A stretch of DNA of 64,000 nt. Origin: Candidatus Pacearchaeota archaeon. Lineage in GTDB: Archaea; Nanobdellota; Nanobdellia; Pacearchaeales; JAPDKA01. Numbering within the stretch: the stretch's first letter is position 1; each line of letters begins with the position of its first letter. Shown here piece after piece: positions 1 through 39,507 of the stretch. The stretch covers positions 35,356-99,355 of the forward strand of contig JAWAFA010000002.1 in the NCBI GenBank assembly GCA_038890875.1, in the 5' to 3' direction. The notes beneath the pieces are model-generated. The model was not told the origin of the DNA, did not search any database, and saw nothing but the letters and a program-made list of their open reading frames with translations. The position numbers and the translations under genes are program-made.

Positions 1-89
1 GCATAGTTGATTGTGAAATTTTCTTCATAAGCATAGGCAAAGCTAATAATAAAAAATATAAAAAGAATAACTAAAAAAACTTTTTTCAT
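1..89 (-). CDS. N-terminal fragment (signal-peptide-like) of a secreted or membrane protein that continues past the left window edge
   Basis: Reverse strand has ATG at 89..87, then MKKVFLVILFIFFIISFAYAYEENFTINY, open to position 1. Absent from the ORF track because it is truncated. Confidence 0.35.
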   Translation of the reverse strand, partial: MKKVFLVILFIFFIISFAYAYEENFTINY

Positions 90-645
90 TTTTATACATT
101 TTCCTTGTTTTACCTCTTTTATTTTATAATAAAAAATTAATTTAAAAACTTTTCATATTTTAAAAATGCCCAGTTTGTAACCATTATTTTGGCACAAGAT
201 AAATGAAAAATTCTTGTTGTTTTTGAAGATTTTCCTTTTAATTGTCTTAGCAATTTCCTGCTCTACAAAATTGCCGACATGGCTTTTAAGCTGTGGCAAA
301 ATAGGATTTGAGTTTAGATCAGCTATAGAGGGAAAAGCGAGAGCTTTAAAATAAGCGCAATGAATGATTATGCATTTTCGCGAAATCTTTCAAAGAAAGA
401 TAAAAGCTCCAAATGTTTTTCTATTTGATTTAAAGGACTTGGCCAGAATTTTAAAATTATGAGAACTAAAAAATTAGGGTGAAGCTGAGCGGCAGAGCAA
501 AGGCAGAGAGTAGTCCGGAAACTCAACTTAGACCAATACTTCTTAATGAAGTTATGATAAAACATAAAATTTATATACCAAAAGAGAATATAACTGGTTG
601 AGCATAAAAAAATTAAACATATTCCGAGAAGGAAGGTAAGATAAG

Positions 646-2160
646 ATGAAATCTAATGGTGCAAATTTAGGTTTTGAACAAAAACTATGGCAAGCAGCAG
701 ACAAGTTAAGAAGCAATATGGATGCTGCAGAATATAAGCATATTGTTTTAGGCTTGATTTTCTTAAAATACATTTCTGACTCTTTTAAAGAAGTTTATGA
801 CGAATTGAAAAAAGATCCAGAAGCTGATCCAGAAGATGTTGATGAATATATTGCAAGAAGAGTTTTTTGGGTTCCTAAAGAAGCGCGATGGGAATACTTA
901 CAGGCTAATGCAAAAAAACCAGAGATAGGCGAGTTAATAGATCATGCGATGGATATTATCGAAAGAGACAATCCGTCATTAAAAGGAGTTCTTCCAAAAA
1001 TTTATGCTAGACCTGCATTAAGTAAACAACGCTTAGGAGAGCTAATAGATTTAATTGGTACTATTGGTTTAGGTGATAAAGAAAATAAAAGTAAAGATAT
1101 TCTTGGCAGAGTTTATGAATATTTTCTTGGACAATTTGCAGATGCTGAGGGCAAGAAAGGCGGCCAATTCTACACGCCTAGGTGCATTGTAAAATTACTT
1201 GTTGAAATGCTCGAACCATACAAAGGAAGGATATTTGACCCTTGCTGTGGTTCAGGAGGAATGTTTGTTCAATCAGAAAAATTTGTTGAGGCTCATGGCG
1301 GGAAAATAGGAGACATCTCAATTTACGGCCAAGAAAGCAATCAAACAACATGGCGTTTATGCAAAATGAACCTTGCGATAAGAAGAATTGATGCAAACAT
1401 AAAGTGGGGCGATTCATTTCATGATGATCAGTTTAAAGATTTAAAAGCAGATTTTATTCTTGCTAATCCTCCTTTTAATGACTCTGACTGGGGTGGCGAA
1501 TTATTACAGGAAGATGTTAGATGGAAGTTTGGTATTCCTCCAAAAGGAAATGCTAATTTTGCATGGGTTCAGCATTTTATCCATCATTTGTCACCAACAG
1601 GAATTGCTGGTTTTGTTCTTGCTAACGGCTCTTTAAGCTCAATGACTTCTAATGAAGGTGAGATAAGAAAAAATATTGTTAAAGCTGACTTAGTTGATTG
1701 CATAGTTGCTTTACCTTCTCAGTTGTTCTATAATACAATGATTCCAGCTTGCTTATGGTTTATTTCTCGTGATAAAAAAGATAACAAGTTTAAGGATAGA
1801 AGAGGCAAGATTTTGTTTATTGATGCAAGAAAAATGGGGGTGATGGTTGATAGGAGACATAGGGAATTGACAGATGAAGAAATAAAGAAAATTGCTGATA
1901 CATATCATGCATGGAGAGGAGAAAATAAACTTGAGTATAAAGATATTCCTGGCTTTTGTAAATCTGCCACATTAGAAGAAGTTGAAAAAAATAATTTTAT
2001 CTTAACACCAGGCCGTTATGTTGGCTTTGAAGAGCAAGAAGAGCCAGAAGAAGTTTTTGAAGAAAAAATGAAAAAGCTCACAGCAGAACTAAAACAACAA
2101 ATGGAAGAAAGCAAAAAGCTCGACGAAGAAATCAAAAGAAATTTGGAGATGCTGGGATAG
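646..2160 (+). CDS. hsdM: Type I restriction-modification system, DNA methyltransferase subunit HsdM
   Basis: N-terminal HsdM-type helix (LWQAADKLR), AdoMet motif [10 protein letters not shown], catalytic NPPF (FILANPPFN). First gene of an hsdM/S/R operon. Confidence 0.93.
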
Positions 2161-2170
2161 AGAGTTTGAG

Positions 2171-4003
2171 ATGAAAATTAATGAAGATTTTTTATTAGCT
2201 GTTGATGATATATTTGGTATCTTGAACTGTATCAAAATAGTAAGTAATCTAGAGAATTTCAAAAATTGGTTAAAAAGTGAACATAAATTAAAAAATGTTG
2301 AAGGCGTGTTTGATGGATACAAGTTTTTTCTAGAATCTGCAATTAGGACATTTTTAAATACGTTAATTTACAATTCTTCTTTGGGCATAGATGAAGATTT
2401 TGTTTTTTATAGAGCAAGATTTGTAGGAGTAGAATTAAATAAAATACCTAACACTTGTGAAAAAACTATTTTGATTAAAAATATCAATGAAAAATTGAAA
2501 TTAATAAAGAAATCGAAGAATTATGAAGAATTAAAATCTGCTATAATCCAATTTAATAGTATTTTAGATATTTTCAAGATAATATATGATAATAATGTAG
2601 AAGTTAATCCTAAACTAAATATAAACAAAGATTTAGCTCTGAAGTATTTAACTATGTTTTATACATATATTTATCTGAATGATACTTCAAGATTTATACC
2701 ACATGGATATTGGGTCAGCATATTGAATAACGAAATTCCGCCCGAAAAGCTCAAGAAAAATTTCAAAGGATATAAATATACTCTTCAATTTTTATGGTCT
2801 GTCTTATTAGGAGAAAAATATGTTTCAACGAGTATTGCTAATTTACATAAAGCCGATGATTGGAGTAGTGAAGATGATTTCCTGTTTGATTTAAGTCGTG
2901 AAAATAAAACAATAACTCAAAGAGAAGATTTAGATAGTTATTTTAGAAAGATTCGAAAGGAAATAATCGAGCCAATAGAGAAGGAATTAAAGATAAATTT
3001 AAATTTCACTAAAATTCTTTACTTGAGAAATAAAATTTTAAAAAAGATTTTTAAAGATTTATTAAAACAACCTAAAGAGCCGCAATTAAATGAAAAAGAG
3101 AAATTGGATTATAATTTATTATGGTATCAGATTGAGTTTTTGGATTCTTCAAAGATCCGTATTTTCGATGGAGTGCCAGCCTTTATTTCATTATTAGTTG
3201 GAACTGCTGAACTTAAAAGAATATTTTCAGAAAATGAAAAGGCGTATATTTGTAAATTTATCCATCCGAATAAATCAGTAAATGGGAATGATTTTAGTTA
3301 TGGGGTTTTAATAGAGGCGTTTGGAAGTATTGGTGATTACTCAGGTTGGATTTTGTTTTTTGATTGTTGTGGCGATTATTCGGGACTTTCTGGTTCTGAG
3401 CATACTATGGCCGAAAAGTTTATTGAAGAATACAAAAAGAAAGGCCGGATAGAAGTCAGAGAAATGACTATAAGTAAAGATAAACTAAAAGAATATATTG
3501 CTGATAAAATAACAAGTGGGAAAAGAGAAGAAATTTTGCAGGCTCTAAAAAAAGAAGCTAGAATAAGACAAGAAAGAGATATTATTAGCGAAGCACAAGG
3601 TTTAGTTCTTGAACTGATAACTTATTATACTCTTTCAAAAAAGATTTATGATTTAGTTGATTGGAATGTAAATCTAAATAAAGATCAATTAGACATAATC
3701 GTAGAAACAAAAAATGAATTTAAACTTATAGAGTGCAAGTCTACTCCTAATAACATAAACATAAATGACGAGATCAATAAATTAAGAACAAAATTGAAAA
3801 ATTGTAACACAAATAAGACTAAGAAAGGTGAATTTTGGTTTTGGATACGACCTACAGAAAACATAATTAAAAAACTAAATAAAGAGGGGATAAGTTTTGT
3901 AGTAGTTTCTGAGTTAATAGATTTGGATGATATTTGGAAAAACAAAAAGAAAGACAAACTTAAAACAATTTTTAATTTTAATAAAAAAATAATGAGGAAT
4001 TAG
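2171..4003 (+). CDS. Uncharacterised 610-aa protein with a C-terminal PD-(D/E)XK nuclease-like motif, embedded in the Type I R-M operon
   Basis: Long ORF starting 10 nt after hsdM and ending 4 nt before hsdS. C-terminal pattern: E481 (LVLELI), D508 (QLDIIV), E521-C-K523 (LIECK). Duplicated GDYSG motif at residues 388-405. I recognise no named family. Confidence 0.6.
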   Translation: MKINEDFLLAVDDIFGILNCIKIVSNLENFKNWLKSEHKLKNVEGVFDGYKFFLESAIRTFLNTLIYNSSLGIDEDFVFYRARFVGVELNKIPNTCEKTILIKNINEKLKLIKKSKNYEELKSAIIQFNSILDIFKIIYDNNVEVNPKLNINKDLALKYLTMFYTYIYLNDTSRFIPHGYWVSILNNEIPPEKLKKNFKGYKYTLQFLWSVLLGEKYVSTSIANLHKADDWSSEDDFLFDLSRENKTITQREDLDSYFRKIRKEIIEPIEKELKINLNFTKILYLRNKILKKIFKDLLKQPKEPQLNEKEKLDYNLLWYQIEFLDSSKIRIFDGVPAFISLLVGTAELKRIFSENEKAYICKFIHPNKSVNGNDFSYGVLIEAFGSIGDYSGWILFFDCCGDYSGLSGSEHTMAEKFIEEYKKKGRIEVREMTISKDKLKEYIADKITSGKREEILQALKKEARIRQERDIISEAQGLVLELITYYTLSKKIYDLVDWNVNLNKDQLDIIVETKNEFKLIECKSTPNNININDEINKLRTKLKNCNTNKTKKGEFWFWIRPTENIIKKLNKEGISFVVVSELIDLDDIWKNKKKDKLKTIFNFNKKIMRN

Positions 4004-4007
4004 AAAT

Positions 4008-5288
4008 ATGAAACCCCAAACCCAAACTAAAAAATTCAAACAAACCGAAATCGGAATGATTCCTGAGGATTGGGAAGAAACAACAATTGGGGTTATCTGC
4101 AATATTAAAAATGGTAAAACTAACACGCAGGATGCTGTAGAGGATGGAGAATACCCTTTATTTGATCGTTCAGCGCAAATTAAACGAAGTAACAAATTTA
4201 TATTTGATTGTGAAGCAATAATTGTGCCTGGTGAAGGAAAAGAATTTCTACCACGATATTTTGAAGGGAAATTTGATTTACACCAAAGATCTTATGCTAT
4301 TTGGAAAAAAGAAAATGTTAATCTAAAGTTTGTTTATTATTGGATTCTTAAAAATAGAGATTATCTCTCTAGAGTTGCTGTTGGTTCTACTGTTAGATCT
4401 CTAAGAATTGGTCATTTACAAAGTTTTCCATTAGGTTTACCTCCCCTTCCCGAGCAACGCGCCATTGCTAAAGTTCTTTCGGCATTTGATGATAAAATCG
4501 AATTATTGCAAAAAATGAACAAAACCCTTGAGGCAATTGGCCAGGCAATTTTCAAGCACTGGTTTGTTGATTTTGAATTTCCAAACGAGGAAGGCAAGCC
4601 CTACAAGTCATCAGGAGGAGAAATGGTTTATAATGAAGAATTAGGCAAAGAAATACCGAAGGGGTGGAGGGTTGGAAAGTTGGGGGAGATTGGAATTTTC
4701 AAAAATGGAGTTAATTATCTAAGAGATGGAAAAGGAGATACAGAATTTTTTATTGTGAATGTTAGAGACATAGCAAATAATAAATTTCTATTAAAAGAGA
4801 AATTAGATAAGATAAGGATAGAATATAATAAAGCAAAAGATTATTTATTATTACCAAACGATATCATTATTGCAAGGAGTGCAAGCCCTGGGGAGGTTTC
4901 TCTGGTTGTTGGCGATACTAATAATATAATTTTCTCGGGGTTCAGCATTCGCTTAAGATTACATAATATTAATAATTGGTTGTATATTTTTTTATTATTG
5001 CAGAATCTAAAACAACAATTAACTAGTTTTTCTATAGGAACGACACTTACTAGTGTTAATCAAGAAACATTAAAAAATATGCCAATCATTCTACCATCTG
5101 AAACTGTTTTAAGTAATTTTAATAAAATCATTGAAATTGTCTTTAACAGGATTGCATATAATCTCAATCAGTTCCTCACTCTCTCCGCTCTTCGCGATTC
5201 TCTCCTTCCTAAACTTATGTCTGGCAAAATCAGAGTTCCTGTGGAGATGATAAAAGAAATGGAAAAGGAGATTGAAAAATCTGCTTAA
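4008..5288 (+). CDS. hsdS: Type I restriction-modification system, specificity subunit HsdS
   Basis: Two target-recognition halves separated by the conserved central helix (LPPLPEQRAIAKVLSAFDDKIELL). Conserved C-terminal helix (LRDSLLPKLMSGKIRV). Confidence 0.9.
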   Translation: MKPQTQTKKFKQTEIGMIPEDWEETTIGVICNIKNGKTNTQDAVEDGEYPLFDRSAQIKRSNKFIFDCEAIIVPGEGKEFLPRYFEGKFDLHQRSYAIWKKENVNLKFVYYWILKNRDYLSRVAVGSTVRSLRIGHLQSFPLGLPPLPEQRAIAKVLSAFDDKIELLQKMNKTLEAIGQAIFKHWFVDFEFPNEEGKPYKSSGGEMVYNEELGKEIPKGWRVGKLGEIGIFKNGVNYLRDGKGDTEFFIVNVRDIANNKFLLKEKLDKIRIEYNKAKDYLLLPNDIIIARSASPGEVSLVVGDTNNIIFSGFSIRLRLHNINNWLYIFLLLQNLKQQLTSFSIGTTLTSVNQETLKNMPIILPSETVLSNFNKIIEIVFNRIAYNLNQFLTLSALRDSLLPKLMSGKIRVPVEMIKEMEKEIEKSA

Positions 5289-5295
5289 AGCAAAA

Positions 5296-5395
5296 TGTTA
5301 ATATTTTTTAACACTTGTTAATTATTTTTAACATTAGATTTTATTATGGTTTAATTTTCAAAAGATTTAAATATTAATGTTAATTATTCTTAACA
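5296..5395. promoter_or_regulatory. Internal promoter/operator region: three copies of the palindrome TGTTAA-N6-TTAACA plus a TATA-like box
   Basis: Palindromes at 5296..5313, 5316..5333 and 5378..5395. The first two are spaced 20 bp apart. TTTAAATA sits at 5366..5373, about 24 nt before the ATG at 5397. The third palindrome lies between the TATA box and the start codon. Confidence 0.5.
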
Positions 5396-5396
5396 T

Positions 5397-5909
5397 ATGT
5401 TAGAAATATTTAACACTTTGAAACCTTTCTTTGAAGATTGTTATAGACGTATTAATGTTCGCGAATATGCAAGAATTCAAAAAATAAGCCCTCCGACAGC
5501 TTCAAAGATTCTTGAAAAATTGCATAAAGAAGGTTTGCTAAAAAAAGAAAAAGAGAATCTTTATAATTATTATTTCGCAAATAAAGATTCTGAGTTTTTC
5601 ATAGAATTATCAAGAATTTATTGGAAAAGAATATTAGAAGATTCAGGATTGTTAGAAGAGCTAGAAAAAAACCTGCTAAATCCGATAATTTATCTTTTTG
5701 GTTCTTTATCAAAAGCAGAAGCGAAAGTTGATTCTGACATTGATATAGCAATTTTTACACCAAAGAAAAAAGAAATTAATCTTGAAAAATTTGAAAAACT
5801 TCTAAAAAGGAAAATACAGATTTTTGTTTTTAAGGATATGAAAGATGTAAAAAATGAAGAACTGCTTAAAAATATACTAAATGGATTTAAAATAAAAGGA
5901 AGCTGGTAA
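5397..5909 (+). CDS. Minimal nucleotidyltransferase (MNT) with an N-terminal winged-helix DNA-binding domain
   Basis: wHTH-like segment VREYARIQKISPPTASKILEKLHKEGLL. Pol-beta NTase motif GSLSKAEAKVDSDIDIAIF. Confidence 0.8.
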   Translation: MLEIFNTLKPFFEDCYRRINVREYARIQKISPPTASKILEKLHKEGLLKKEKENLYNYYFANKDSEFFIELSRIYWKRILEDSGLLEELEKNLLNPIIYLFGSLSKAEAKVDSDIDIAIFTPKKKEINLEKFEKLLKRKIQIFVFKDMKDVKNEELLKNILNGFKIKGSW

Positions 5910-6314
5910 ATGGACTGGAAAGAGTGCTTAAAACAAAGAATTGTGAAAGAAACAAAAGAAGATAAAAATCTAGTAAAATCTTTATTAGAAACAGCAGAAA
6001 TAAAATTAAAGTCTGCTGATTCTTTGGCCGATGAATTTTTTATAAGTAAAATTTCTCTATTATATGATTCTCTAAGAGAAATTCTAGAAGCACTAGCTAT
6101 TAAAAAAGGATTTAGGATTTATAACCATGAATGCTATGTTGCTTTTCTAAAGGAGATAATGGGTTTATCAAGAGAAGCAGAAATTTTTAATAATTTGAGA
6201 AAAACTAGAAATGATATAAATTATTATGGAAAAAAACTTGAAAAAGAAGAAGCAAAAGTAATTATAGGAAAATTAAAGAATTTAATTTCGAAATTTAAAA
6301 ATGTGATAAAATGA
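5910..6314 (+). CDS. HEPN-domain protein, partner of the preceding MNT
   Basis: About 130 aa and all-helical. Starts at the base after the MNT stop and overlaps hsdR by 4 nt. Motif [12 protein letters not shown] resembles the HEPN Rx4-6H region but has Tyr where His is expected. Confidence 0.65.
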
Positions 6315-9300
6315 AAAAAGCAATCTCTGAATCAGATGTTGAAGAATTTGTTTTGTCTTTGCTAGAGAAATTAGGTTATGAAATAATCAGAGGGAATAAT
6401 GAGAATTACTTGCCAAATGGAAAATATGCGCTAAGGCAAAGATATGAAGATGTTGTGCTTGTTGATAGATTGCGACAGGCTTTGAGAAGGATTAATCCAC
6501 AGGTATCAGAAGAAGCTAGAGAACAAGTAATAAAAGAAATTCTAAGAATAGGAAGCCAAAAGTTGCTTGTTGACAATGAAACCTTTCACAGAATGCTTAC
6601 TGATGGAGTCAGCATTCCTATAAAAAAAGAAGGTGAAGAAAGACACGTTTTGATTAATCTATTTGATTTTAAAGATATAAAAAATAATGATTTTCTCGCT
6701 GTTAATCAATTTACAGTAATAGAAAAAGATGAAAGAAGACTTGATATTGTTTTATTTGTTAATGGTTTGCCTCTAGTTGTTATAGAGTTAAAAAATCCTA
6801 CTGATGAAAATGCAACAATCTGGACAGCATATAATCAACTTCAAACATATAAAGAGCAGATACCATCTTTGTTCAAGTATAATGAAATTTTAGTTATTAG
6901 TGATGGAATAGAAGCAAGAGCAGGTACAATTACATCTGAGCCAGAGAGGTTTATGCAGTGGAAAACAATAGATGGAGAAAAACCAAAAAAGGGGTTAACA
7001 GAGATAGAAATTTTAATTAGAGGTATGTTTGGCAAAAACAGACTTCTGGATATTGTAAGAAACTTTATTGTTTTTGAAAAAGATAAAGAAACAAAAAAGA
7101 AATTAGCGGCATATCACCAATATTGGGCGGCAAATAAAGCAATAGAATCAACATTGCAAGCAAGAAAAACAAACAAAAAAGCAGGCATTGTATGGCATAC
7201 TCAAGGTTCTGGAAAATCTTTAACAATGATTTTTTATGCTGGAAAAATAATCCGAGAGATGGATAATCCAACAATAGTTGTTATTACAGATAGAAATGAT
7301 CTTGATGACCAGTTATTTGGAACTTTTAGCAAGTGTCAAGATATATTAAGGCAAAAACCAGTTAAGGCAAACACAAGAAAAGAATTAATGGAATTGCTTA
7401 AAGTTTCTTCTGGTGGAGTTGTCTTTACAACAATTCAAAAATTCTTTCCTGAAGAGGATAGAGAAAAATACCCTACACTATCAGAGCGAGATAATATTAT
7501 TGTAATAGCGGATGAAGCTCATAGAAGTCAATATGGATTTCCTGCAAAAATACTAAAGAAAGAAGATAAAGCATTAATTACTTATGGCTATGCAAAGTAC
7601 TTAAGAGATGCTTTACCAAATGCTTCATTTATTGGTTTCACAGGAACTCCAATAGAAAAAGCAGATAGATCAACACCAGCAGTATTTGGAAAATATGTTG
7701 ATGTTTATGATATAGAACAAGCAGTGAATGACGGCGCTACTGTAAGAATATTTTATGAAAGTAGATTGGCAAAGTTAGATTTAAAACCAGAAGAAAGACC
7801 AAAGATTGATCCTGAATTTGAGGAGGTAACAGAAGGCGAAGAAGTAGAACATAAAGAAAAATTAAAGAGCAAATGGGCAAGACTCGAAAAGATTGCAGGC
7901 GCTCCTAAAAGAATAAGAAGGATTGCAAAAGACATCGTGAATCATTTTGAGCAAAGGCTTTCTGTTCTTGATGGAAAAGGAATGATTGTATGCATGTCAA
8001 GAAGAATATGTATTGACCTTTATAATGAGATAATAAAACTAAGGCCAGAGTGGCATAATCAAGATGATGATAAAGGCTTTATCAAAGTCGTAATAACAGG
8101 CTCTGCTTCTGACCCGAAAGAATGGCAGCAATATATAAGAAACAAAGCCAGAAGAAAGAAAATAGGTGATAATTTTAAAGACCCAAAACATGAAACTAAA
8201 TTGCTTATTGTAAGAGATATGTTCTTGACAGGTTTTGATGTACCATCTTTACATACAATGTATCTTGATAAACCAATGAAGGGCCATACTTTAATGCAAG
8301 CTATAGCGAGAGTAAACAGAGTTTATCCTGGAAAGGAAGGTGGTTTAGTTGTTGACTATATGGGTGTTGGTGCTGAATTGAAAAAAGCTTTGATGGAGTA
8401 CACAGAAAGCGGGGGTAAAGGGAAACCAACACTAGATCAAGAAGAGGCAGTAAGATTAATGTTAGAAAAATATGAAATTGTAAAAGATATGTTTTATGGT
8501 TTTAATTACAAGAAATTTTTTGAGCTTTCGCCAAAAGAAAGGTTAGCTTTCATACCAAATGCAATAGAGCATATACTAAAAGAGCCTGGTAAAAAAGAAA
8601 GATTTGAAAAAGAAGCCACTGCTCTTGTTAAAGCATTTTCTTTAGCAGTTCCTCATGAAAAGGCAATGAAAATTAAGGAAGAAGTTGGTTTCTTCCAGGC
8701 ATTAAAATCAACAATATCAAAAACAATTGAAACTAAAAAAGACACAAAGGAACAGTACGAAACAGCGATCAAACAGATTATCTCAAAAGCAGTAATCTCT
8801 GATAGAATTATAGATATATTTGAAGCTGCTGGAATTCAAAAGCCGGAACTTTCTATTCTATCAGAGGGCTTTTTGGCCGAAGTAAAAGAGATGCCTCAGA
8901 AAAACTTAGCATTTGAAGCGCTAAAAAAATTATTGAACGATGAGATTAAAATAATTTCAAAAAGAAACCTTGTTCAAGGCAAATCTTTTATGGAGATGCT
9001 AGACAGAACAATAAAAAAATATACGAATAGAGCTGTAGAGGCCGCGCAAGTTATAGAAGAATTAATAGAGTTAGCAAGAAAAGTTAGAGAAGAAAAAAAC
9101 AGAGGAAAAGAGTTAGGAATGAGTGAAGATGAACTTGCATTTTATGATGCACTTGAAGTTAATGATAGCGCGGTTAAAATACTTGGTGATGAGACTCTAC
9201 GAAAAATAGCACTCGAACTAACACAAATGATAAGAAAAAGTGTTACAATAGACTGGACACAAAGAGAAAGTGTTCAAGCAGAGTTGCGCCTCAAAGTAAA

Positions 9301-9406
9301 GAAAATACTAAGAAAATACGGCTATCCACCTGATAAAGAGAAAAAGGCAACAGAAACAGTTTTAAAACAGGCAGAGTTAGTTGCCGGAAATTTAGTTGGT
9401 GTGTGA
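6311..9406 (+). CDS. hsdR: Type I restriction enzyme, restriction (helicase/endonuclease) subunit HsdR
   Basis: N-terminal nuclease core ([17 protein letters not shown]). SF2 motifs: [12 protein letters not shown] ([10 protein letters not shown]), [12 protein letters not shown]. Confidence 0.93.
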
Positions 9407-9502
9407 GGCCAGACATTTGCCAATTCATTTAACTTAAGAAATCTCCACGTTATTGCGAACGATTGTGGCAAGATTTTTAAAAACTAAATTCATGCTTTTT
9501 TT

Positions 9503-11425
9503 ATGAAGGCGTTATTTTTGCATTGCAACAGTATTTATTTTAGGCCGCTACAAAAAGCGATACCCAGTGCTGAAGAAGTTTCGGAGAAATTAAAAAAAGA
9601 AGGTGAAAAAATTAATGAAGCATTAGTTGTATTTACGAGTGTAGAAGTTAATGACGATGAAGGTTGTGTTCTACAACTTACTGATGAGATAAAAAATGTT
9701 TTAAAGCAAATCAAGGCAAAAAATGTTGTTATCTACCCTTATGTCCACTTAAGCCAAAGTCCAGCTCAACCTAGTCTCGCATTAGACCTTTTAATGAAAG
9801 CAGAGAAAGAAGTAAAAAAACTTAAAGGGATAGAAGTTGTAAGAGCTCCATTTGGCTGGTATAAAGAGTTTGATATTAATGTTAAGGGCCATCCATTATC
9901 AGAATTAAGTCGAGAAATAAAACCTAGCGAAGCGAAAAGCAAAGAAAAAAAAGTTAGTGAAAAAGAGGAAATAAGTAAAGCATTAAAGGCTGAAGAAAAG
10001 GCAATAAGTAGTTGGTATATTCTTGATCTAGATGGAAATCTTCATAAAATAACTTTGAAAGGAGAAGAGATTAGTGGGTTTGATTTTTCTGAATATGAAA
10101 ATTTAGAAAAATTTGCAAGATATGAAATGAAAAAAATCAGAGCGGTTAATGTTGAACCACCACATGTTAAATACATGCGTGAGCTTGAACTTGTCGATTA
10201 TGAGAATGCTAGCGATCCAGGAAACTTTAGATTTTACCCCAAAGGTAAGATTATAAAGGCATTACTTGAGGAATTTGTAACAAAACAGATTCTTGATTAT
10301 GGTGCTCTTGAAGTTGAGACGCCAATTATGTATGACTTTGAACATCCAGCTTTAAAAGCATATCTTAATAAGTTTCCTGCTAGACAGTATTCAATTATCA
10401 CTCCAAATAAAAAAGTTTTTTTAAGATTTGCCGCTTGCTTTGGCCAATTCATTATGGCAAGCCAAGCAGGAATAAGTTATAAACACTTGCCACTTAGACT
10501 TTATGAACTTACAAAATATAGCTTTAGAGTTGAGCAGCATGGTGAGTTAGTCGGTTTACGTCGATTGCGTACTTTTACCATGCCTGATTGCCATTGCTTA
10601 TGCAAAGATTTAGAACAAGCTAAAGAAGAAATGAAGATAAGATTTGAATTAGCTAAAAGAACTTTAAAAGGGATTGGTTTCACCTTTCCAGATGATTTCG
10701 AATTAGGTATCAGAGTTACAAAAGATTTTTGGCAAGAGAATAATGAGTTTATTAAATCATTAGTAAAACTTTTTGGTAAACCAGCATTAATTGAAATGTG
10801 GCCAGAACGCTATTTTTATTTTGTGCTAAAATATGAGCTAAATTTTATAGATGCACTAAATAAAGCATCAGCACTAGCAACCGATCAAATTGATGTAGGC
10901 AATGCTCAAAATTATGGGATAACTTATATCGACAGTAATAATGAGAAAAAATATCCAGTAATCTTACATCTATCTCCTAGTGGGAGCATAGAGCGGGTTA
11001 TGTATGCTTTGCTTGAAAAAGCTTACCTTCAGGAAAAAGCTAGAAAAAAACCAAGTTTACCATTTTGGCTTAGCCCAATTCATGCAAGAATTGTCCCTGT
11101 TAGTGAAAAATATGTTGACGAAGCTATTGAAATAGCTAAAGACCTTAATGAGCATAATGAACTTAGAGTAGATGTTGATGATCGTGATTTACATGTTGGT
11201 TATAAAATTAGGCAAGCCGAAATGGAATGGATCCCTTATATTATTGTCATAGGCAAGAAAGAATTAGAGAACGAAGTGTTTACTGTAAGGATCCGCGAAA
11301 CTGGAGAAATTAAAGAGATACCTCCAGGAAAGTTTAGAGAGATGGTTAAAAATAAAATGGAAGGAATGCCGTTTCGACCTCTCTCTCTTCCATTCCTTCT
11401 TAGTAAAAGACCTAGATTTGTGTAA
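9503..11425 (+). CDS. thrS: Threonyl-tRNA synthetase, archaeal type with an N-terminal editing domain
   Basis: 640 aa. Archaeal-style N-terminus (MKALFLHCNSIYFRP), class II catalytic core and C-terminal anticodon-binding domain. Confidence 0.9.
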   Translation: MKALFLHCNSIYFRPLQKAIPSAEEVSEKLKKEGEKINEALVVFTSVEVNDDEGCVLQLTDEIKNVLKQIKAKNVVIYPYVHLSQSPAQPSLALDLLMKAEKEVKKLKGIEVVRAPFGWYKEFDINVKGHPLSELSREIKPSEAKSKEKKVSEKEEISKALKAEEKAISSWYILDLDGNLHKITLKGEEISGFDFSEYENLEKFARYEMKKIRAVNVEPPHVKYMRELELVDYENASDPGNFRFYPKGKIIKALLEEFVTKQILDYGALEVETPIMYDFEHPALKAYLNKFPARQYSIITPNKKVFLRFAACFGQFIMASQAGISYKHLPLRLYELTKYSFRVEQHGELVGLRRLRTFTMPDCHCLCKDLEQAKEEMKIRFELAKRTLKGIGFTFPDDFELGIRVTKDFWQENNEFIKSLVKLFGKPALIEMWPERYFYFVLKYELNFIDALNKASALATDQIDVGNAQNYGITYIDSNNEKKYPVILHLSPSGSIERVMYALLEKAYLQEKARKKPSLPFWLSPIHARIVPVSEKYVDEAIEIAKDLNEHNELRVDVDDRDLHVGYKIRQAEMEWIPYIIVIGKKELENEVFTVRIRETGEIKEIPPGKFREMVKNKMEGMPFRPLSLPFLLSKRPRFV

Positions 11426-11429
11426 AGAG

Positions 11430-11939
11430 ATGATAAAACAAAAGTTTGCTGAGTTGAAAAGACAACCAATATTTAAGCTTGAAAAAGGCTTTCAACTTTT
11501 TCTTGTTTTTTGCATAACTGATTCAAGCCTGAATATTGAGCAGATTGATTTCAGTTTTATAAGTTCAAATTCAAGCGGCAAAAATAAAAATGAGAAGGAA
11601 TATAAACCTCATAAAATAAAAAATTTCTCTTTTAAAGGAGGGGTTTGGCAGTTTCACAAAAGTGAAGAAGAAAAAAATTTTGGCACGATTAATATTAAGG
11701 ATGTAAAAGATATTCCAGAGCTTTTACCAAAAATTAAACACCTTTTGGAAGATAAAAAACTTAGTATTGACAAATTTATTTTTATACTAGAGAATAAAAA
11801 AGGCTCTGAAATTTACAGTGTGACTTGCCTGTGCAAAGACTTTTTTGTCTATAAGATAACATTTGACGCAAAAACTTTAAACTTACTCGATACAAAAATG
11901 CATAACTTGTTCGACTTTTTCCAGATTAAAAAAGTATAA
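11430..11939 (+). CDS. Hypothetical protein
   Basis: The ORF is open from a TTG at 11418. The first ATG, at 11430, lies just after the thrS stop. No recognisable motif. Confidence 0.4.
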   Translation: MIKQKFAELKRQPIFKLEKGFQLFLVFCITDSSLNIEQIDFSFISSNSSGKNKNEKEYKPHKIKNFSFKGGVWQFHKSEEEKNFGTINIKDVKDIPELLPKIKHLLEDKKLSIDKFIFILENKKGSEIYSVTCLCKDFFVYKITFDAKTLNLLDTKMHNLFDFFQIKKV

Positions 11940-11977
11940 AAGTATAAAAACTTATTGCTGCAAAAAGAAGCTGCTGA

Positions 11978-12429
11978 TTTTGCTTTTTCTCGCATTACTC
12001 TTTTTGTTGGTTTTATAAGCAAAATTCTTCAAAATTTGTCTCGAAAGCTAGCAATGAGATAGTAATTAATAACTTTGCTTTTGATCCACCAGAATTGATT
12101 GTTGATGCTGATACAGAAGTGATATGGAGGCAAGAAGACGATGTTGTTCACAATATTGTTTCAGATGAAAATTTATTTATGAGCGATGTGTTAAAAAAAA
12201 GGGAATCAAACAAAATTGCGGCTCTAAAAAAACAAAAGAAGATTGGGAAACTGTTTAAAGAGACATTGATTGTTAGTATTTGTGTCTCGTCTTAGATTTT
12301 TTATTTCACCTTCTTTTAACAAGACCGATGGAATCTTTGACTTACTTTATCATAAAACTTCTGGCTTTTTTTCTCGCAACAGGAATGCTTAGTTTAGCGA
12401 TTTTTAAAATAAAGAAAAAAAGAATATAG
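11978..12429 (+). pseudogene. Possible decayed cupredoxin-like (plastocyanin-fold) gene with a detached C-terminal membrane anchor
   Basis: Frame open from 11978 with no ATG. It reads NNFAFDPPELIVDADTEVIWRQEDDVVHNIVSDENLF, a cupredoxin N-terminal pattern that includes the first His ligand. It then stops (ICVSS*) where the Cys-His-Met ligand loop is expected. A separate 33-codon TM-anchor ORF occupies 12328..12429. Confidence 0.3.
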
Positions 12430-12622: not shown

Positions 12623-13765
12623 CTAAGTTAAAAAATTCCGTAAGAGCCACATCTCCTTTCTCACTTTACTTGTTGAACAATGTAGGGATTTACTTAGTTC
12701 TTCTACAAGTTTTTTTTCTTCACTAACCTTCCTTCGATAAAGTTCAATAAAATAAGAAGGATAGCTATATTTTACAAATACTTTAGTTTTTTTATTAGCA
12801 ATGTTAGCATAAGGCCCAACTGCGCATAAAAAGATGTTTACATAAGCAAGAAAACGCCAATACTGCCATCTTATGATTCTGTGAATGTATAGATCTGCCA
12901 AGCTAAGCATTTCATAAGCTCTTGCTAATGCTTCTTTTTCATACTCACGATACAAATTTTCATCAATCCATCTAATAATCTCTTCCATTTCAATATCAAC
13001 ATTTTCAAAAAGTTCTGATGTAAGGATAGTTGAATTAAACAATAACCTTAGTGCATCAAAAATTTTTTGTTCTTTGTCTCTTGACGAAAATCGCAAGTAT
13101 TCACTCACTTCCCCAAGTAAAACTTTTTTATTCCTCTCAGCAAGAGTTTGCAAGTCATTTATAGCTGCACGTGCATCACCTTTAGCATTAGCTGCAATAA
13201 GTTTTAATGTTTCATCACTAACATCGATCTTCTCATTTTTTGCAACTCGTTTTAGTATTTTTATAATATCAACGATGCTCAATTTCTTTGTTTCGATGAT
13301 TAATTGATGTTTTTTTCTTAATTCCGTGAATCTTTTATTGTAAGGATCATTAGTAATCAAGAGAATTGGGTAGGGAGAACTATCAATAATTAATGAAAGT
13401 TCAGCTAAACCGCCCCTATCTTCTTGCCCTGAAATACCTTCTAATTCATCAATAATTATCAACTTGTTTTTATCAAATAAACTCTTCTGTTTTATTGCTT
13501 CACTAACTGTTTGTTTTATGTGTGCTTTGTCACGAAAATCACTGGCATTTAGCTCTATGAGCTCGAGTTTAAGTTGATTGGCTAAGGCATAAGCTAAAGC
13601 AGTTTTGCCTGTACCAGGCGGTCCATAGATTATGCATGCTTTAGCTTTTTCTTTTATATTTTCATAATTTTTGATAAAACTATATACTTTTATCTTTTCT
13701 TCTTCCAAATTTTGTAATTCATTTAAATTGCGTGGCCTATATTTTTCCGCCCATATTTCAGCCAT
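12623..13765 (-). CDS. rfcL: Replication factor C, large subunit
   Basis: WAEKYRP start, Walker A GPPGTGKTA, Walker B IIIDELEG. Adjacent to rfcS. Confidence 0.85.
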   Translation of the reverse strand: MAEIWAEKYRPRNLNELQNLEEEKIKVYSFIKNYENIKEKAKACIIYGPPGTGKTALAYALANQLKLELIELNASDFRDKAHIKQTVSEAIKQKSLFDKNKLIIIDELEGISGQEDRGGLAELSLIIDSSPYPILLITNDPYNKRFTELRKKHQLIIETKKLSIVDIIKILKRVAKNEKIDVSDETLKLIAANAKGDARAAINDLQTLAERNKKVLLGEVSEYLRFSSRDKEQKIFDALRLLFNSTILTSELFENVDIEMEEIIRWIDENLYREYEKEALARAYEMLSLADLYIHRIIRWQYWRFLAYVNIFLCAVGPYANIANKKTKVFVKYSYPSYFIELYRRKVSEEKKLVEELSKSLHCSTSKVRKEMWLLRNFLT

Positions 13766-13775
13766 TTTGGTGTTT

Positions 13776-14762
13776 TTATTTTCCCAATGAAGAAATAAAA
13801 GCGATCAAGCTTTCTAATTGAATTAACTCATCAGCTCCTTCAACAAGTCTAAATTCAATCTCAGCAATTTTTTCTATTAATTTTACCTTTTTTTCGATTG
13901 GCATATCCCTTTCAAGTAATTCTTTTTGTATTGTTTTTATAATATCAGTTCCATAAACTCCTTGATTGATTAAAATTTTAAAAAGAATTTCTCGTGCTTT
14001 CTCAAAATTTCCATTTAAGGCATTTGTTAGCATTTCCGCAACATCTTTTGGTTTAGCTTCAGCAATAATACTATAAACAACATCTTCAGTAATTATTTTA
14101 TTAACACTAGCACATGTTTGCAACAAATTTATTGCTCTTCGGCAATCCCCTTCGCTAATATCATAAAGCGCCCTAATAGCATTTTTATCTATTTTCAATT
14201 TTTCTGCTTTTGCAATTTTCTCAATAATTTTTTCAATATCATTTTCTGTCAAGGGTTTAAATCGGAAAAGGCTAGTTCTTGATTGTATTGGATCGATAAT
14301 CTTACTTGAATAATTACAACTTAAGATGAAGCGACAAGTTGTAGTAAAATTTTCCATTGTCCTTCTTAGTGCTTGTTGCGCTTCTTTTGTTAATGCATCT
14401 GCTTCATCAAGGAATATGATCTTGAATGGCACATTACCAATAGCTTTAGTCCTAGCAAAATCTTTAACTTTTAGTCTTATTACATTTATTCCTCGCTCAT
14501 CACTTGCATTTAGTTCAAGATAGTTTTCTCTCCAATTTTTTCCGAATAGATTTTTTACAATTACTAATGCCAATGTAGTTTTGCCTGTCCCTGCCGGGCC
14601 AGCGAAAAGCAGGTGAGGCATATTTCGCTGTTCAACGAAAGCTTTAGCACGCCTTACAATTTCATCTTGGCCGATGATTTCACTAAACTCGCTTGGTCTA
14701 TATTTCTCTGCCCACACTGTTTCTTCGTAACTCTCAAGCTTGCCTTCTTTTATTTCTTTCAT
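13776..14762 (-). CDS. rfcS: Replication factor C, small subunit
   Basis: WAEKYRP, GPAGTGKTT, IIFLDEADALT, and an SRC-region equivalent (IQSRTSLFRF). Confidence 0.93.
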   Translation of the reverse strand: MKEIKEGKLESYEETVWAEKYRPSEFSEIIGQDEIVRRAKAFVEQRNMPHLLFAGPAGTGKTTLALVIVKNLFGKNWRENYLELNASDERGINVIRLKVKDFARTKAIGNVPFKIIFLDEADALTKEAQQALRRTMENFTTTCRFILSCNYSSKIIDPIQSRTSLFRFKPLTENDIEKIIEKIAKAEKLKIDKNAIRALYDISEGDCRRAINLLQTCASVNKIITEDVVYSIIAEAKPKDVAEMLTNALNGNFEKAREILFKILINQGVYGTDIIKTIQKELLERDMPIEKKVKLIEKIAEIEFRLVEGADELIQLESLIAFISSLGK

Positions 14763-39357: not shown

Positions 39358-39507
39358 TCCCCGCGGCCGGACTCGAACCAGCAACCCCTCGGTATCTGCA
39401 TCATAACTTAAATGAGCACGAGCTGGACAGCTCTCATTGATGCTTAAGCTTGGCTTAAGCTGCTCAAGCTTCTACAGCCGAGTGCTCTACCGTTGAGCTA
39501 CGCGGGG
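39358..39507 (-). tRNA. tRNA-Tyr (GTA) with an intron of ~78 nt at the canonical 37/38 position
   Basis: Acceptor CCCCGCG/CGCGGGG with C1:G72 and discriminator A. D arm GCTC-AACGGTA-GAGC. Anticodon stem CTCGG/CCGAG interrupted after CTGTAG. T arm GCTGG-TTCGAGT-CCGGC. No encoded CCA. Confidence 0.85.

What the first reader, a model, noticed from the sequence alone, without database searches (positions are those of the whole stretch)
646..9406. One operon, three layers: Type I R-M plus nuclease-like cargo plus MNT/HEPN module
All six genes lie on one strand with minimal spacing:
- hsdM is followed after 10 nt by ORF610.
- ORF610 is followed after 4 nt by hsdS.
- hsdS is followed after 108 nt by the MNT gene.
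- The MNT gene is followed after 0 nt by the HEPN gene.
- The HEPN gene overlaps hsdR by 4 nt (ATGA).

Because hsdR translation appears coupled to the HEPN gene, restriction-subunit dosage is tied to expression of the toxin-antitoxin-like pair.

MNT/HEPN pairs and R-M systems are known to co-occur in defence islands. This nested order, which splits M, S and R with two different cargo modules, is unusual. It suggests regulatory or functional coupling rather than simple adjacency.
Basis: partly seen in the sequence, partly recalled or inferred. Interest (0 to 1): 0.65.

Follow-up and report, generated by a model that had tools for sequence, protein, structure and literature searches.

The report
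Type I restriction operon carrying swappable defence genes
A tiny-genome archaeon carries an intact Type I restriction-modification operon with two unrelated defence modules inserted at two fixed slots; this is a new example of the known "embedded defence genes" pattern, not a purpose-built three-layer machine.

Summary
Six intact same-strand genes lie at the stated coordinates, with gaps of 10, 4, 108 and 0 nt and a 4-nt overlap.

The interpretation of specific functional coupling is mostly not supported.
1. The block (window ~256-9465) is a variable insert between genes that are syntenic in a same-genus genome.
2. Four orthologous hsd operons in related genomes (hsdM 75-85% identical) use the same M-S and S-R slots. 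Their cargo is entirely different: PIN, AbiTii, Schlafen/AlbA, DUF3800, short pAgo+SIR2, and unknowns.
3. All 80 closest metagenomic MNT/HEPN pairs lack hsd genes within 6 kb. Most ORF610 homologs are solitary.
4. A 95%-identical MNT/HEPN cassette survives in another genome next to remnants of the same operon, without hsdR.
5. The ATGA overlap is common in this genome (29 of 374 pairs). The same cassette family overlaps pgk and other genes.

New details:
- The cluster is probably two transcription units. MNT/HEPN brings a strong leaderless promoter flanked by four TGTTAA-N6-TTAACA operators that co-vary with the MNT wHTH helix. hsdR has no promoter of its own, so it probably depends on this autoregulated promoter.
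- ORF610 is an unannotated family with a C-terminal PD-(D/E)xK nuclease.
- The HEPN fold is confirmed, but the motif is RNxxNYY, with no His.

The parts
256..9465 (+). Variable defence block (island) between a conserved secreted-protein gene and thrS
   Evidence: In same-genus G001 the flanks match window 1-255 and 9466-9600. Between them G001 has only ~1.5 kb, encoding a 410-aa repeat protein.
570..577 (+). Predicted TATA box (TTTATATA) of the hsdM unit, 76 nt upstream of the ATG (leadered transcript)
   Evidence: Genome-derived BRE/TATA PWM scores 12.5 bits at -76. No box at the leaderless distance.
646..2160 (+). hsdM, Type I N6-adenine DNA methyltransferase (504 aa)
   Evidence: PF02384 at 7.7e-116, PF12161 at 1.5e-26, PADLOC MTase_I 777 bits.
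2171..4003 (+). ORF610, cargo in slot 1. Unannotated family: helical N-domain, alpha/beta middle domain, C-terminal PD-(D/E)xK nuclease (E481, D508, E521-x-K523)
   Evidence: No library hit. 78 homologs, all 'hypothetical'. AF2 pLDDT 86. Foldseek matches to NucS/EndoMS, Can2, Card1 and R.BspD6I over ~110-130 C-terminal residues. Conserved catalytic residues. Sub-threshold Card1_endonuc/NERD/Mrr_cat hits.
4008..5288 (+). hsdS, specificity subunit with two target-recognition domains (426 aa)
   Evidence: Two PF01420 stretches at 1e-34. PADLOC Specificity_I 306 bits.
5296..5333 (.). Distal operator pair O1 (5296-5313) and O2 (5316-5333), TGTTAA-N6-TTAACA. Their spacers hold T6 and T5 tracts that could also terminate the hsdMS transcript
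   Evidence: Exact matches; 0.83 expected in the whole window. Repeat structure.
5358..5373 (+). BRE/TATA of the MNT-HEPN(-hsdR) unit (TATA TTTAAATA at 5366-5373, 31 nt upstream of the ATG), predicted leaderless
   Evidence: PWM 16.5 bits, 98th percentile of long ORFs; 0 of 1283 internal ATGs reach it. 70 of 73 family promoters have a TATA at -36 to -24, mode -31.
5378..5415 (.). Proximal operator pair O3 (5378-5395) and O4 (5398-5415, 1 mismatch, overlaps codons 1-6 of MNT), between the TATA box and the start
   Evidence: Operator type co-varies with the wHTH recognition helix across paralogs.
5397..5909 (+). wHTH-MNT: N-terminal winged helix plus minimal nucleotidyltransferase (170 aa). Predicted autorepressor and antitoxin-like partner
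   Evidence: PF18765/PF01909 and several wHTH families at residues 17-60. PDC-M05A at 8e-16. NCBIfam MntA 34 bits, below the cut-off of 60.
5910..6314 (+). HEPN-fold protein (134 aa). Motif R100-N101-x-x-N104-Y105-Y106 (no His); invariant H73, R56, E60, D53
   Evidence: AF2 pLDDT 95. Foldseek top hit AF_0298 HEPN 2hsb, TM 0.70/0.74, then TT1696, sacsin HEPN and HepT. Alignments. PDC-M05B at 2.9e-7.
6311..9406 (+). hsdR, Type I restriction subunit (1031 aa). Start overlaps the HEPN stop (ATGA); no promoter of its own
   Evidence: TIGR00348 658 bits; PF04313, PF18766, PF22679, PF11867. PWM -1.8 at the leaderless distance. Homology with orthologous hsdR starts at 6308.

Best explanation
The region is a ~9.2-kb mobile defence block. 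Its scaffold is an intact Type I R-M system of a lineage that circulates among small-genome (DPANN-type) archaea. In this lineage two junctions, hsdM|hsdS and hsdS|hsdR, act as docking slots where unrelated, self-sufficient defence modules are repeatedly gained, swapped and lost.

In this genome slot 1 holds ORF610. It is a solitary nuclease of an unannotated family, with sensor-like N-terminal domains and a C-terminal PD-(D/E)xK domain. Slot 2 holds a ~1.02-kb wHTH-MNT/HEPN cassette (PADLOC candidate PDC-M05) that brings its own promoter and operators.

Expression is predicted as two units.
- (i) A leadered hsdM-ORF610-hsdS transcript.
- (ii) A leaderless MNT-HEPN-hsdR transcript. It starts from a strong BRE/TATA flanked by two pairs of TGTTAA-N6-TTAACA operators, which the wHTH of MNT is predicted to bind for negative autoregulation.

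hsdR has no promoter of its own and overlaps the HEPN stop. Its expression is therefore probably a passive passenger of this autoregulated unit, possibly with some read-through from unit (i).

Shown: gene identities, folds, slot boundaries, cargo turnover, promoter and operator conservation, helix/operator co-variation. Inferred: transcription units, repression by MNT, nuclease activity of ORF610, any toxin/antitoxin activity.
For: - Island boundaries come from synteny with G001.
- Orthologous operons share the slots but not the cargo:
  - G043: M-[391 aa]-[PIN_12]-S-[AbiTii, opposite strand]-R.
  - G038: M-[Schlafen AlbA_2/HATPase_c_4/wHTH]-[DUF3800]-[427 aa]-[DUF2283 gene + an unidentified 115-aa ORF, opposite strand]-R.
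  - G016: M-[166 aa]-S-[564 aa]-[94 aa]-R.
  - G049: M-[wHTH]-[Piwi]-[SIR2_2]-S-R.
- DNA homology breaks exactly at the gene ends: 2177, about 4430-5230, and 6308.
- MNT/HEPN is autonomous. 36 of 61 relatives carry copies, up to 11 per genome. None of the 8 nearest genomic copies and none of 80 metagenomic copies is next to hsd genes.
- G058 has the cassette at 95% DNA identity (window 5292-6316), next to an hsdM stub fused to the hsdS 3' end, and has no hsdR in its genome.
- Promoters: genome-wide TATA peak at -30 to -26. PWM scores are MNT 16.5, thrS 14.2, hsdM 12.5 at -76, hsdR -1.8, ORF610 -4.2 and hsdS 2.1.
- Operators: four copies against 0.83 expected. 70 of 73 family promoters share the TATA-operator-ATG layout. 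54 of 58 SPPTAS-helix members have TGTTAA-N6-TTAACA, and other helices have other dyads.
- ORF610.
- HEPN fold.
- Literature: embedding in Type I R-M is frequent and 96.7% co-oriented, and PDCs were derived from it (10.1101/2024.01.29.577857). PDC-M05 is NTase + HEPN, archaea-enriched, with its antiviral role unconfirmed (PMC12988326).
Against: - The two-unit model and the dependence of hsdR on the MNT promoter rest on sequence motifs only.
- A weak TATA-like AATTTAAT box about 30 nt upstream of hsdR cannot be excluded in 28%-GC DNA.
- ORF610 is not randomly placed. 7 of ~31 loci have an N6A methyltransferase nearby, and 4 are directly adjacent on the same strand. This hints at more than passive docking.
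- Only five orthologous operons were sampled.
- No biochemical evidence exists for any cargo protein of these families.
Confidence: 0.7

Rival explanations
1. Dedicated functional coupling. Either MNT/HEPN acts as a controller of hsdR (C-protein-like delay or limit on the restriction subunit), or it acts as a PrrC-like second line that is held inactive by the R-M complex and released when restriction is blocked. The nesting would then be selected for.
For: hsdR has no promoter of its own and overlaps the HEPN stop, so R dosage probably does follow an autorepressed promoter. This is the only MNT/HEPN copy in this genome. PrrC-type coupling is an established precedent, and at least 16 HEPN clades are linked to R-M operons, including the classical HEPN clade that contains 2hsb (PMC3710099).
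Against: - The cassette family is free-standing in 80 of 80 metagenomic loci and in 8 of 8 nearest genomic loci.
- It overlaps pgk, a PIN-PilT-like ATPase gene and a HerA-like gene in the same ATGA manner.
- It persists without hsdR in G058.
- Orthologous hsdR genes work from their own upstream regions or follow other cargo.
- The HEPN motif lacks the catalytic His.
Confidence: 0.15
2. ORF610 is not passive cargo. It is a nuclease subunit that works with N6-adenine methyltransferase/specificity modules, either as an alternative or additional restriction endonuclease of the M2S complex or as a modification-sensing Type IV-like enzyme.
For: N6A MTase is the only recurrent neighbour of ORF610.
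- L005 has hsdS-ORF610-hsdM with 2-nt gaps and no hsdR within 10 kb.
- L012 has an Eco57I/MmeI-type MTase-TRD protein overlapping the ORF610 homolog by 4 nt.
- L015 has a 574-aa MTase-TRD without a nuclease domain directly upstream.
- The PD-(D/E)xK catalytic residues are conserved.
Against: About 24 of 31 loci have no methyltransferase within 5 kb, with neighbours that include NACHT, AbiE and Cap4-NACHT genes. An unprotected classical restriction nuclease would be toxic there. The window also has an intact HsdR.
Confidence: 0.12
3. The locus is a decaying relic without current function.
For: Related copies are eroded. G038 has a split hsdM and no detected hsdS, G049 has a broken hsdR, and G058 has only an hsdM stub. 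R-M is under-represented in DPANN archaea (PMC12988326).
Against: All six ORFs in the window are full length with intact motifs. Promoter and operators are intact.
Confidence: 0.03

Closest known systems
Defence genes embedded in Type I R-M, BREX, DISARM and Hma loci ('guilt-by-embedding', Payne, Hughes, Fineran & Jackson 2024, bioRxiv 10.1101/2024.01.29.577857)
   Same: Same-strand cargo sits between hsd genes. The cargo are defence-type modules, and PDC-M05 is one of the candidates defined this way. The cargo differs between related host systems.
   Different: This is an archaeal DPANN-type hsd lineage in which the M-S slot is occupied in all five orthologous operons seen. One cargo, ORF610, is absent from PADLOC-DB v2. 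The S-R cargo supplies the probable promoter for hsdR.
PADLOC candidate PDC-M05 (nucleotidyltransferase + HEPN; PMC12988326)
   Same: Two-gene NTase-HEPN pair with hits to the PDC-M05A and PDC-M05B models; archaea-enriched.
   Different: The antiviral role of PDC-M05 is itself untested. This subfamily has an N-terminal wHTH on the NTase and RNxxNYY in place of RNxxxH.
Type VII toxin-antitoxin HepT/MntA (Shewanella SO_3166/SO_3165, PDB 5yep/7bxo; Aphanizomenon HEPN/MNT, PDB 7ae8)
   Same: Adjacent MNT and HEPN genes. The HEPN fold matches HepT structures (TM ~0.65). An NTase GS...DxD-type motif is present. Conserved tyrosines lie next to the motif, where HepT is AMPylated.
   Different: NCBIfam MntA scores below its cut-off (34 against 60 bits). 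The HEPN catalytic His is replaced by Tyr. The closest structure is AF_0298 (classical HEPN clade), not HepT. An extra wHTH domain is present.
EcoprrI-PrrC (anticodon nuclease embedded in a Type Ic hsd operon)
   Same: A HEPN-domain protein is encoded inside a Type I hsd operon. This is the precedent for R-M plus second-line coupling.
   Different: PrrC is an ABC-ATPase-HEPN fusion found almost only embedded in R-M. Here there is a small HEPN with an MNT partner, and that family is almost always free-standing.
Controller (C) proteins of Type II R-M systems
   Same: A small DNA-binding autoregulator is encoded just upstream of, and co-transcribed with, the restriction gene. Repeated palindromic operators lie around its promoter.
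   Different: The DNA-binding domain here is a wHTH fused to a nucleotidyltransferase, not an Xre-type HTH. The cassette is promiscuous and not dedicated to R-M. No activation function is evident.
NucS/EndoMS, Can2/Card1-type PD-(D/E)xK nuclease domains
   Same: The C-terminal ~110-130 residues of ORF610 superpose at 3.2-3.9 A with the E...D...ExK residues conserved.
   Different: There is no CARF or NucS N-terminal domain. The ~470 N-terminal residues have no structural or sequence match.

Membership tests
Type I restriction-modification system | HsdM: HsdM_N plus gamma-class N6-adenine MTase domain | tested here: met
   PF12161 at 1.5e-26 and PF02384 at 7.7e-116. The NCBIfam equivalog TIGR00497 scores 205.6, below its cut-off of 242.75, so this is not that exact equivalog.
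Type I restriction-modification system | HsdS with two target-recognition domains | tested here: met
   Two PF01420 stretches at 1e-34. PADLOC Specificity_I 306 bits across residues 94-412.
Type I restriction-modification system | HsdR: N-terminal nuclease, SF2 motor and C-terminal domain | tested here: met
   PF04313, PF18766, PF22679 and PF11867. TIGR00348 scores 658 bits against a cut-off of 284.55.
Type I restriction-modification system | Restriction and methylation activity | not testable with these tools
   No methylome or expression data.
PADLOC PDC-M05 candidate system | Adjacent genes matching the M05A (NTase) and M05B (HEPN) models | tested here: met
   PDLC04368 at 8e-16 for MNT and PDLC04379 at 2.9e-7 for HEPN. 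The genes abut with a 0-nt gap.
Type VII TA HepT/MntA | MntA-family adenylyltransferase (NCBIfam NF047752 above cut-off) | tested here: not met
   34.3 bits against a cut-off of 60. phmmer to MntA 5yep gives E=0.14.
Type VII TA HepT/MntA | HEPN toxin with the R-x4-6-H RNase motif | tested here: not met
   The motif is R100-N-D-I-N-Y105-Y106. Tyr is invariant across 19 and 9 homologs.
Type VII TA HepT/MntA | HEPN fold | tested here: met
   Foldseek: 2hsb TM 0.70/0.74 at rmsd 2.7; HepT 7bxo_F TM 0.65.
Type VII TA HepT/MntA | Toxicity neutralised by AMPylation of a HEPN tyrosine | not testable with these tools
   Needs expression and mass spectrometry.
PrrC/RloC anticodon nucleases | ABC-type ATPase fused to HEPN | tested here: not met
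   The HEPN protein is 134 aa with no ATPase domain.
R-M controller (C) proteins | Small Xre-type HTH protein dedicated to R-M loci | tested here: not met
   The domain is a wHTH (TrmB/MarR/HTH_24-like) fused to an NTase. The family is free-standing in 80 of 80 loci.
PD-(D/E)xK nuclease superfamily (ORF610 C-terminus) | Restriction-endonuclease-like fold with conserved E...D...(D/E)xK | tested here: met
   D508 invariant, E481 and E521 nearly invariant, E521-C522-K523. Foldseek probability 1.0 to NucS, Can2, Card1 and R.BspD6I at rmsd 3.2-3.9.
PD-(D/E)xK nuclease superfamily (ORF610 C-terminus) | Match to a curated family above threshold | tested here: inconclusive
   Only sub-threshold hits: Card1_endonuc best 4.5e-4 and NERD 2.7e-3, in 5-6 of 37 members.

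The most novel reading that the evidence does not exclude
The wHTH-MNT/HEPN cassette has been co-opted as the controller of the restriction subunit. MNT-mediated autorepression at the four operators would set, and after transfer to a new host delay, HsdR synthesis relative to HsdM/HsdS. This would be an archaeal, TA-derived analogue of C-protein control, with the HEPN partner possibly acting as a back-up effector when restriction is blocked.
Probability: 0.15. Interest if true: 0.7.

Novelty: new member of a known kind. Interest (0 to 1): 0.4.

Why it matters
It documents, in poorly studied small-genome archaea, that one Type I R-M lineage serves as a carrier with two fixed slots whose defence cargo turns over quickly.
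- The cargo seen includes PIN, AbiTii, Schlafen-like, short pAgo+SIR2, MNT/HEPN and an unannotated nuclease.
- This extends 'guilt-by-embedding' to DPANN-type archaea.
- It nominates ORF610 as a new defence candidate.
- It gives a concrete, testable promoter-operator model for the abundant archaeal wHTH-MNT/HEPN (PDC-M05) modules.
- It offers a natural case in which a restriction gene probably depends on a TA-type autoregulated promoter.

Tried and rejected
- Sequence searches of the PDB with the HEPN profile found nothing meaningful. MNT gave only marginal hits.
- A viral-contig scan for the HEPN family found no relatives.
- The BFVD fold search of ORF610 matched only the C-terminal nuclease again.
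- I considered PrrC-like, C-protein and canonical HepT/MntA membership and rejected each on a failed defining feature (see the membership tests).
- I considered that the ATGA overlap signals dedicated HEPN-hsdR coupling. I rejected it as specific evidence because the same overlap occurs with pgk, a PIN-PilT-like ATPase and a HerA-like ATPase downstream of family members, and in 7.8% of same-strand pairs genome-wide.
- I considered a conserved partner for ORF610 other than methyltransferases. None was found.


Full report

| Gene | Coordinates |
|---|---|
| hsdM | 646-2160 |
| ORF610 | 2171-4003 |
| hsdS | 4008-5288 |
| MNT | 5397-5909 |
| HEPN | 5910-6314 |
| hsdR | 6311-9406 |

- The gaps are 10, 4, 108 and 0 nt, and HEPN overlaps hsdR by ATGA.
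- HsdM, HsdS and HsdR are canonical and full length.
- The 170-aa protein is a winged-helix domain fused to a minimal nucleotidyltransferase. It and its 134-aa partner match the PADLOC candidate pair PDC-M05A/B.
- ORF610 matches nothing in Pfam, NCBIfam or PADLOC.
- The host is an archaeon, because thrS downstream has the archaeal editing domain. Its genome is 0.61 Mb and ~91% complete, i.e. DPANN-type.
- In this compact genome 39% of same-strand neighbours are 10 nt apart or closer, and 29 of 374 pairs overlap by exactly 4 nt. The tight spacing is real but ordinary.

**The block is an insert.** In a same-genus genome (G001) the two flanking genes lie 1.7 kb apart. These are a 392-aa secreted protein (81% identical) and thrS (75% identical).
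- DNA homology covers window 1-255 and 9466-9600 only.
- A 410-aa tandem-repeat protein occupies the site in G001.
- The R-M/cargo block is therefore about window 256-9465.

**The cargo slots are conserved but the cargo is not.** Only 9 of 61 related genomes have a Type I hsdR. Four of them carry orthologous operons (hsdM 75-85% identical, hsdR 62-81%). DNA homology with the window covers hsdM (643-2177), the conserved core of hsdS (within ~4430-5230) and hsdR from 6308, and nothing in between.

| Genome | M-S slot | S-R slot |
|---|---|---|
| G043 | 391-aa protein + PIN_12 | AbiTii (opposite strand) |
| G038 | Schlafen AlbA_2/HATPase_c_4/wHTH + DUF3800 + unknown 427-aa protein | opposite-strand pair: DUF2283 gene + an unidentified 115-aa ORF |
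| G016 | 166-aa ORF | 564-aa + 94-aa ORFs |
| G049 | small wHTH + short Piwi Argonaute + SIR2 | none |

G038 has a split hsdM and no detectable hsdS. G049 has a broken hsdR.

**MNT/HEPN is an autonomous cassette.**
- The family is expanded in the relatives: 36 of 61 genomes, up to 11 copies each.
- None of the eight nearest genomic copies has hsd genes next to it.
- None of the 80 closest metagenomic loci (46-66% identical HEPN) has hsdM, hsdS or hsdR within 6 kb.
- No relative was found on viral contigs.

G058, from another family of the same order, carries window 5292-6316 at 95% DNA identity. That stretch is the operators, MNT and HEPN.
- It is preceded by a second, different MNT'/HEPN' pair.
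- It is also preceded by an hsdM stub (residues 1-190, 94% DNA identity) fused directly to the last ~50 nt of hsdS.
- Homology ends at the HEPN stop, where a 253-aa ORF of unknown family overlaps by ATGA. G058 has no hsdR anywhere.
- The cassette therefore outlives the R-M system.

The ATGA-type junction after HEPN also occurs in other loci, so it is not specific to hsdR. The downstream genes there are phosphoglycerate kinase, a PIN-PilT-like ATPase and a HerA-like ATPase.

**Promoters and operators.** The 108-nt hsdS-MNT spacer and the first MNT codons hold four copies of TGTTAA-N6-TTAACA in two adjacent pairs. The positions are 5296-5313 and 5316-5333, then 5378-5395 and 5398-5415. Only 0.83 copies are expected in the whole window. 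A TTTAAATA box lies at 5366-5373, between the pairs.

Genome-wide, TTTAWAWA boxes peak sharply 26-30 nt upstream of ATGs, in 49 of 358 long ORFs. Leaderless transcripts are therefore the norm here. A BRE/TATA weight matrix built from those sites gave the following scores:

| Gene | Score (bits) | Position | Note |
|---|---|---|---|
| MNT | 16.5 | -31 | 98th percentile; 0 of 1283 internal ATGs reach it |
| thrS | 14.2 | -27 | |
| hsdM | 12.5 | -76 | leadered |
| hsdS | 2.1 | | |
| hsdR | -1.8 | | |
| ORF610 | -4.2 | | |

- Across 73 non-redundant family members, 70 have a TATA at -36 to -24 (mode -31), followed by a dyad and then the ATG.
- 54 of 58 members with an SPPTAS-type recognition helix have TGTTAA-N6-TTAACA.
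- Members with other helices have other dyads: INHTTVRQY with TTGTAA...TTACAA, KSPTTISKY with GGACAAtTGT repeats, LPLPSxIRY with TTGATA...TATCAA, and GQPSVTNY with TGATAT...ATATCA.
- This co-variation supports direct autoregulation by the wHTH.

The cluster is therefore best read as two units, hsdM-ORF610-hsdS and MNT-HEPN-hsdR. hsdR has no promoter of its own. Orthologous hsdR genes either have their own upstream region (G043, G038) or abut other genes (G016, G049).

**The HEPN protein.** The AlphaFold model is very confident, with pLDDT 95.
- It matches classical HEPN structures best: AF_0298 (2hsb) at TM 0.70/0.74 and rmsd 2.7 A, then TT1696, the sacsin HEPN domain and HepT toxins.
- The expected RNxxxH motif reads R100-N101-D-I-N104-Y105-Y106. 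The tyrosines are invariant in all homologs, and H73, R56, E60 and D53 are also invariant.
- Anantharaman et al. note that members of this clade lacking the motif His may use a conserved His elsewhere. They also note that this clade clusters with R-M operons in several instances (PMC3710099).
- MNT scores below the NCBIfam MntA cut-off.
- The pair therefore works like an MNT/HEPN toxin-antitoxin-type module but fails two defining tests of the characterised HepT/MntA family.

**ORF610.** It belongs to a family of at least 78 proteins, all labelled hypothetical, in diverse archaea and in some bacteria.
- The model (pLDDT 86, pTM 0.76) has a helical N-domain, an alpha/beta middle domain and a C-terminal domain.
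- The C-terminal domain matches NucS/EndoMS, Can2, Card1, Cdn1 and R.BspD6I PD-(D/E)xK nucleases.
- E481, D508 and E521-x-K523 are conserved.
- Sub-threshold Pfam hits in family members point the same way.
- Most homologs are solitary in defence-type neighbourhoods with NACHT, Cap4-NACHT, AbiEi/AbiEii or another Type I system.

The only recurrent neighbour is an N6-adenine methyltransferase, in 6 of ~30 loci plus the window.
- L005 has hsdS-ORF610-hsdM with 2-nt gaps and no hsdR within 10 kb.
- L012 has an Eco57I/MmeI-type MTase-TRD protein overlapping the ORF610 homolog by 4 nt.
- L015 has an MTase-TRD protein without a nuclease domain directly upstream.
- I keep an MTase-partnered or modification-sensing nuclease as a minority reading.

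**Comparison with what is known.** Embedding of defence genes within Type I R-M, BREX, DISARM and Hma loci is described. It is 96.7% co-oriented, and it was the basis for defining the PDC candidates (10.1101/2024.01.29.577857).
- PDC-M05 is reported as an archaea-enriched NTase + HEPN pair with unconfirmed antiviral function, and R-M as under-represented in DPANN archaea (PMC12988326).
- PrrC-like second-line coupling between R-M and HEPN proteins was proposed in 2013.
- The finding is therefore a new member of a known kind.

What is new here:
- The two-slot, high-turnover behaviour of one archaeal hsd lineage.
- The ORF610 family.
- The conserved leaderless promoter-operator design of wHTH-MNT/HEPN cassettes.
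- The probable dependence of hsdR on that promoter.

**Verdict.** 'One operon, functionally coupled' is only partly supported. The most likely picture, at about 0.7, is a Type I R-M scaffold carrying two independent, exchangeable defence modules, transcribed as two units.

Noticed in passing
L078 (G049:C84), reverse strand, about 2185-6008 of the reversed locus: A short Piwi-domain Argonaute (669 aa) and a SIR2_2 protein (426 aa), preceded by a 105-aa wHTH protein, are embedded between hsdM and hsdS of an orthologous Type I operon whose hsdR is broken. This looks like a SPARSA-like system as R-M cargo in a DPANN-type genome.
   Followed up: partly
L055 (G058:C1:378500-398400), 8722-12123 minus strand: Remnant of the same operon: an hsdM stub (200 aa) fused to the hsdS 3' end, two tandem MNT/HEPN cassettes with different operators (TTAAC-N4-GTTAA type and TGTTAA-N6-TTAACA), and a 253-aa ORF without any Pfam hit overlapping HEPN by ATGA.
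   Followed up: partly
whole genome G000: TATA boxes (TTTAWAWA) peak sharply 26-30 nt upstream of start codons (49 of 358 long ORFs), so leaderless mRNAs appear to be the rule in this organism. hsdM, with a box at -76, is an exception.
   Followed up: partly
L160 (G001:C1) 13433-14665: At the site that holds the R-M block in the window, the same-genus genome has a 410-aa protein made of ~30-residue tandem repeats (PQLFxQSPDTIExNIRDLVRRFEPEGLT).
   Followed up: no
L076 (G038) and L077 (G016), S-R slot: A shared unknown protein family fills the slot before hsdR in two orthologous operons (427 aa and the C-terminal part of 564 aa, motif KISxEFTNFYxxKIYGTxFKNKDYFLQNE). No Pfam match.
   Followed up: no
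window 39358-39507 (- strand): Rfam tRNA hit spanning 150 nt that ARAGORN did not report. It is probably an intron-containing archaeal tRNA.
   Followed up: no
window 256-645: About 390 bp of apparently non-coding sequence at the left edge of the island, upstream of hsdM. It is not shared with G001. Only short, probably spurious minus-strand ORFs are present.
   Followed up: no
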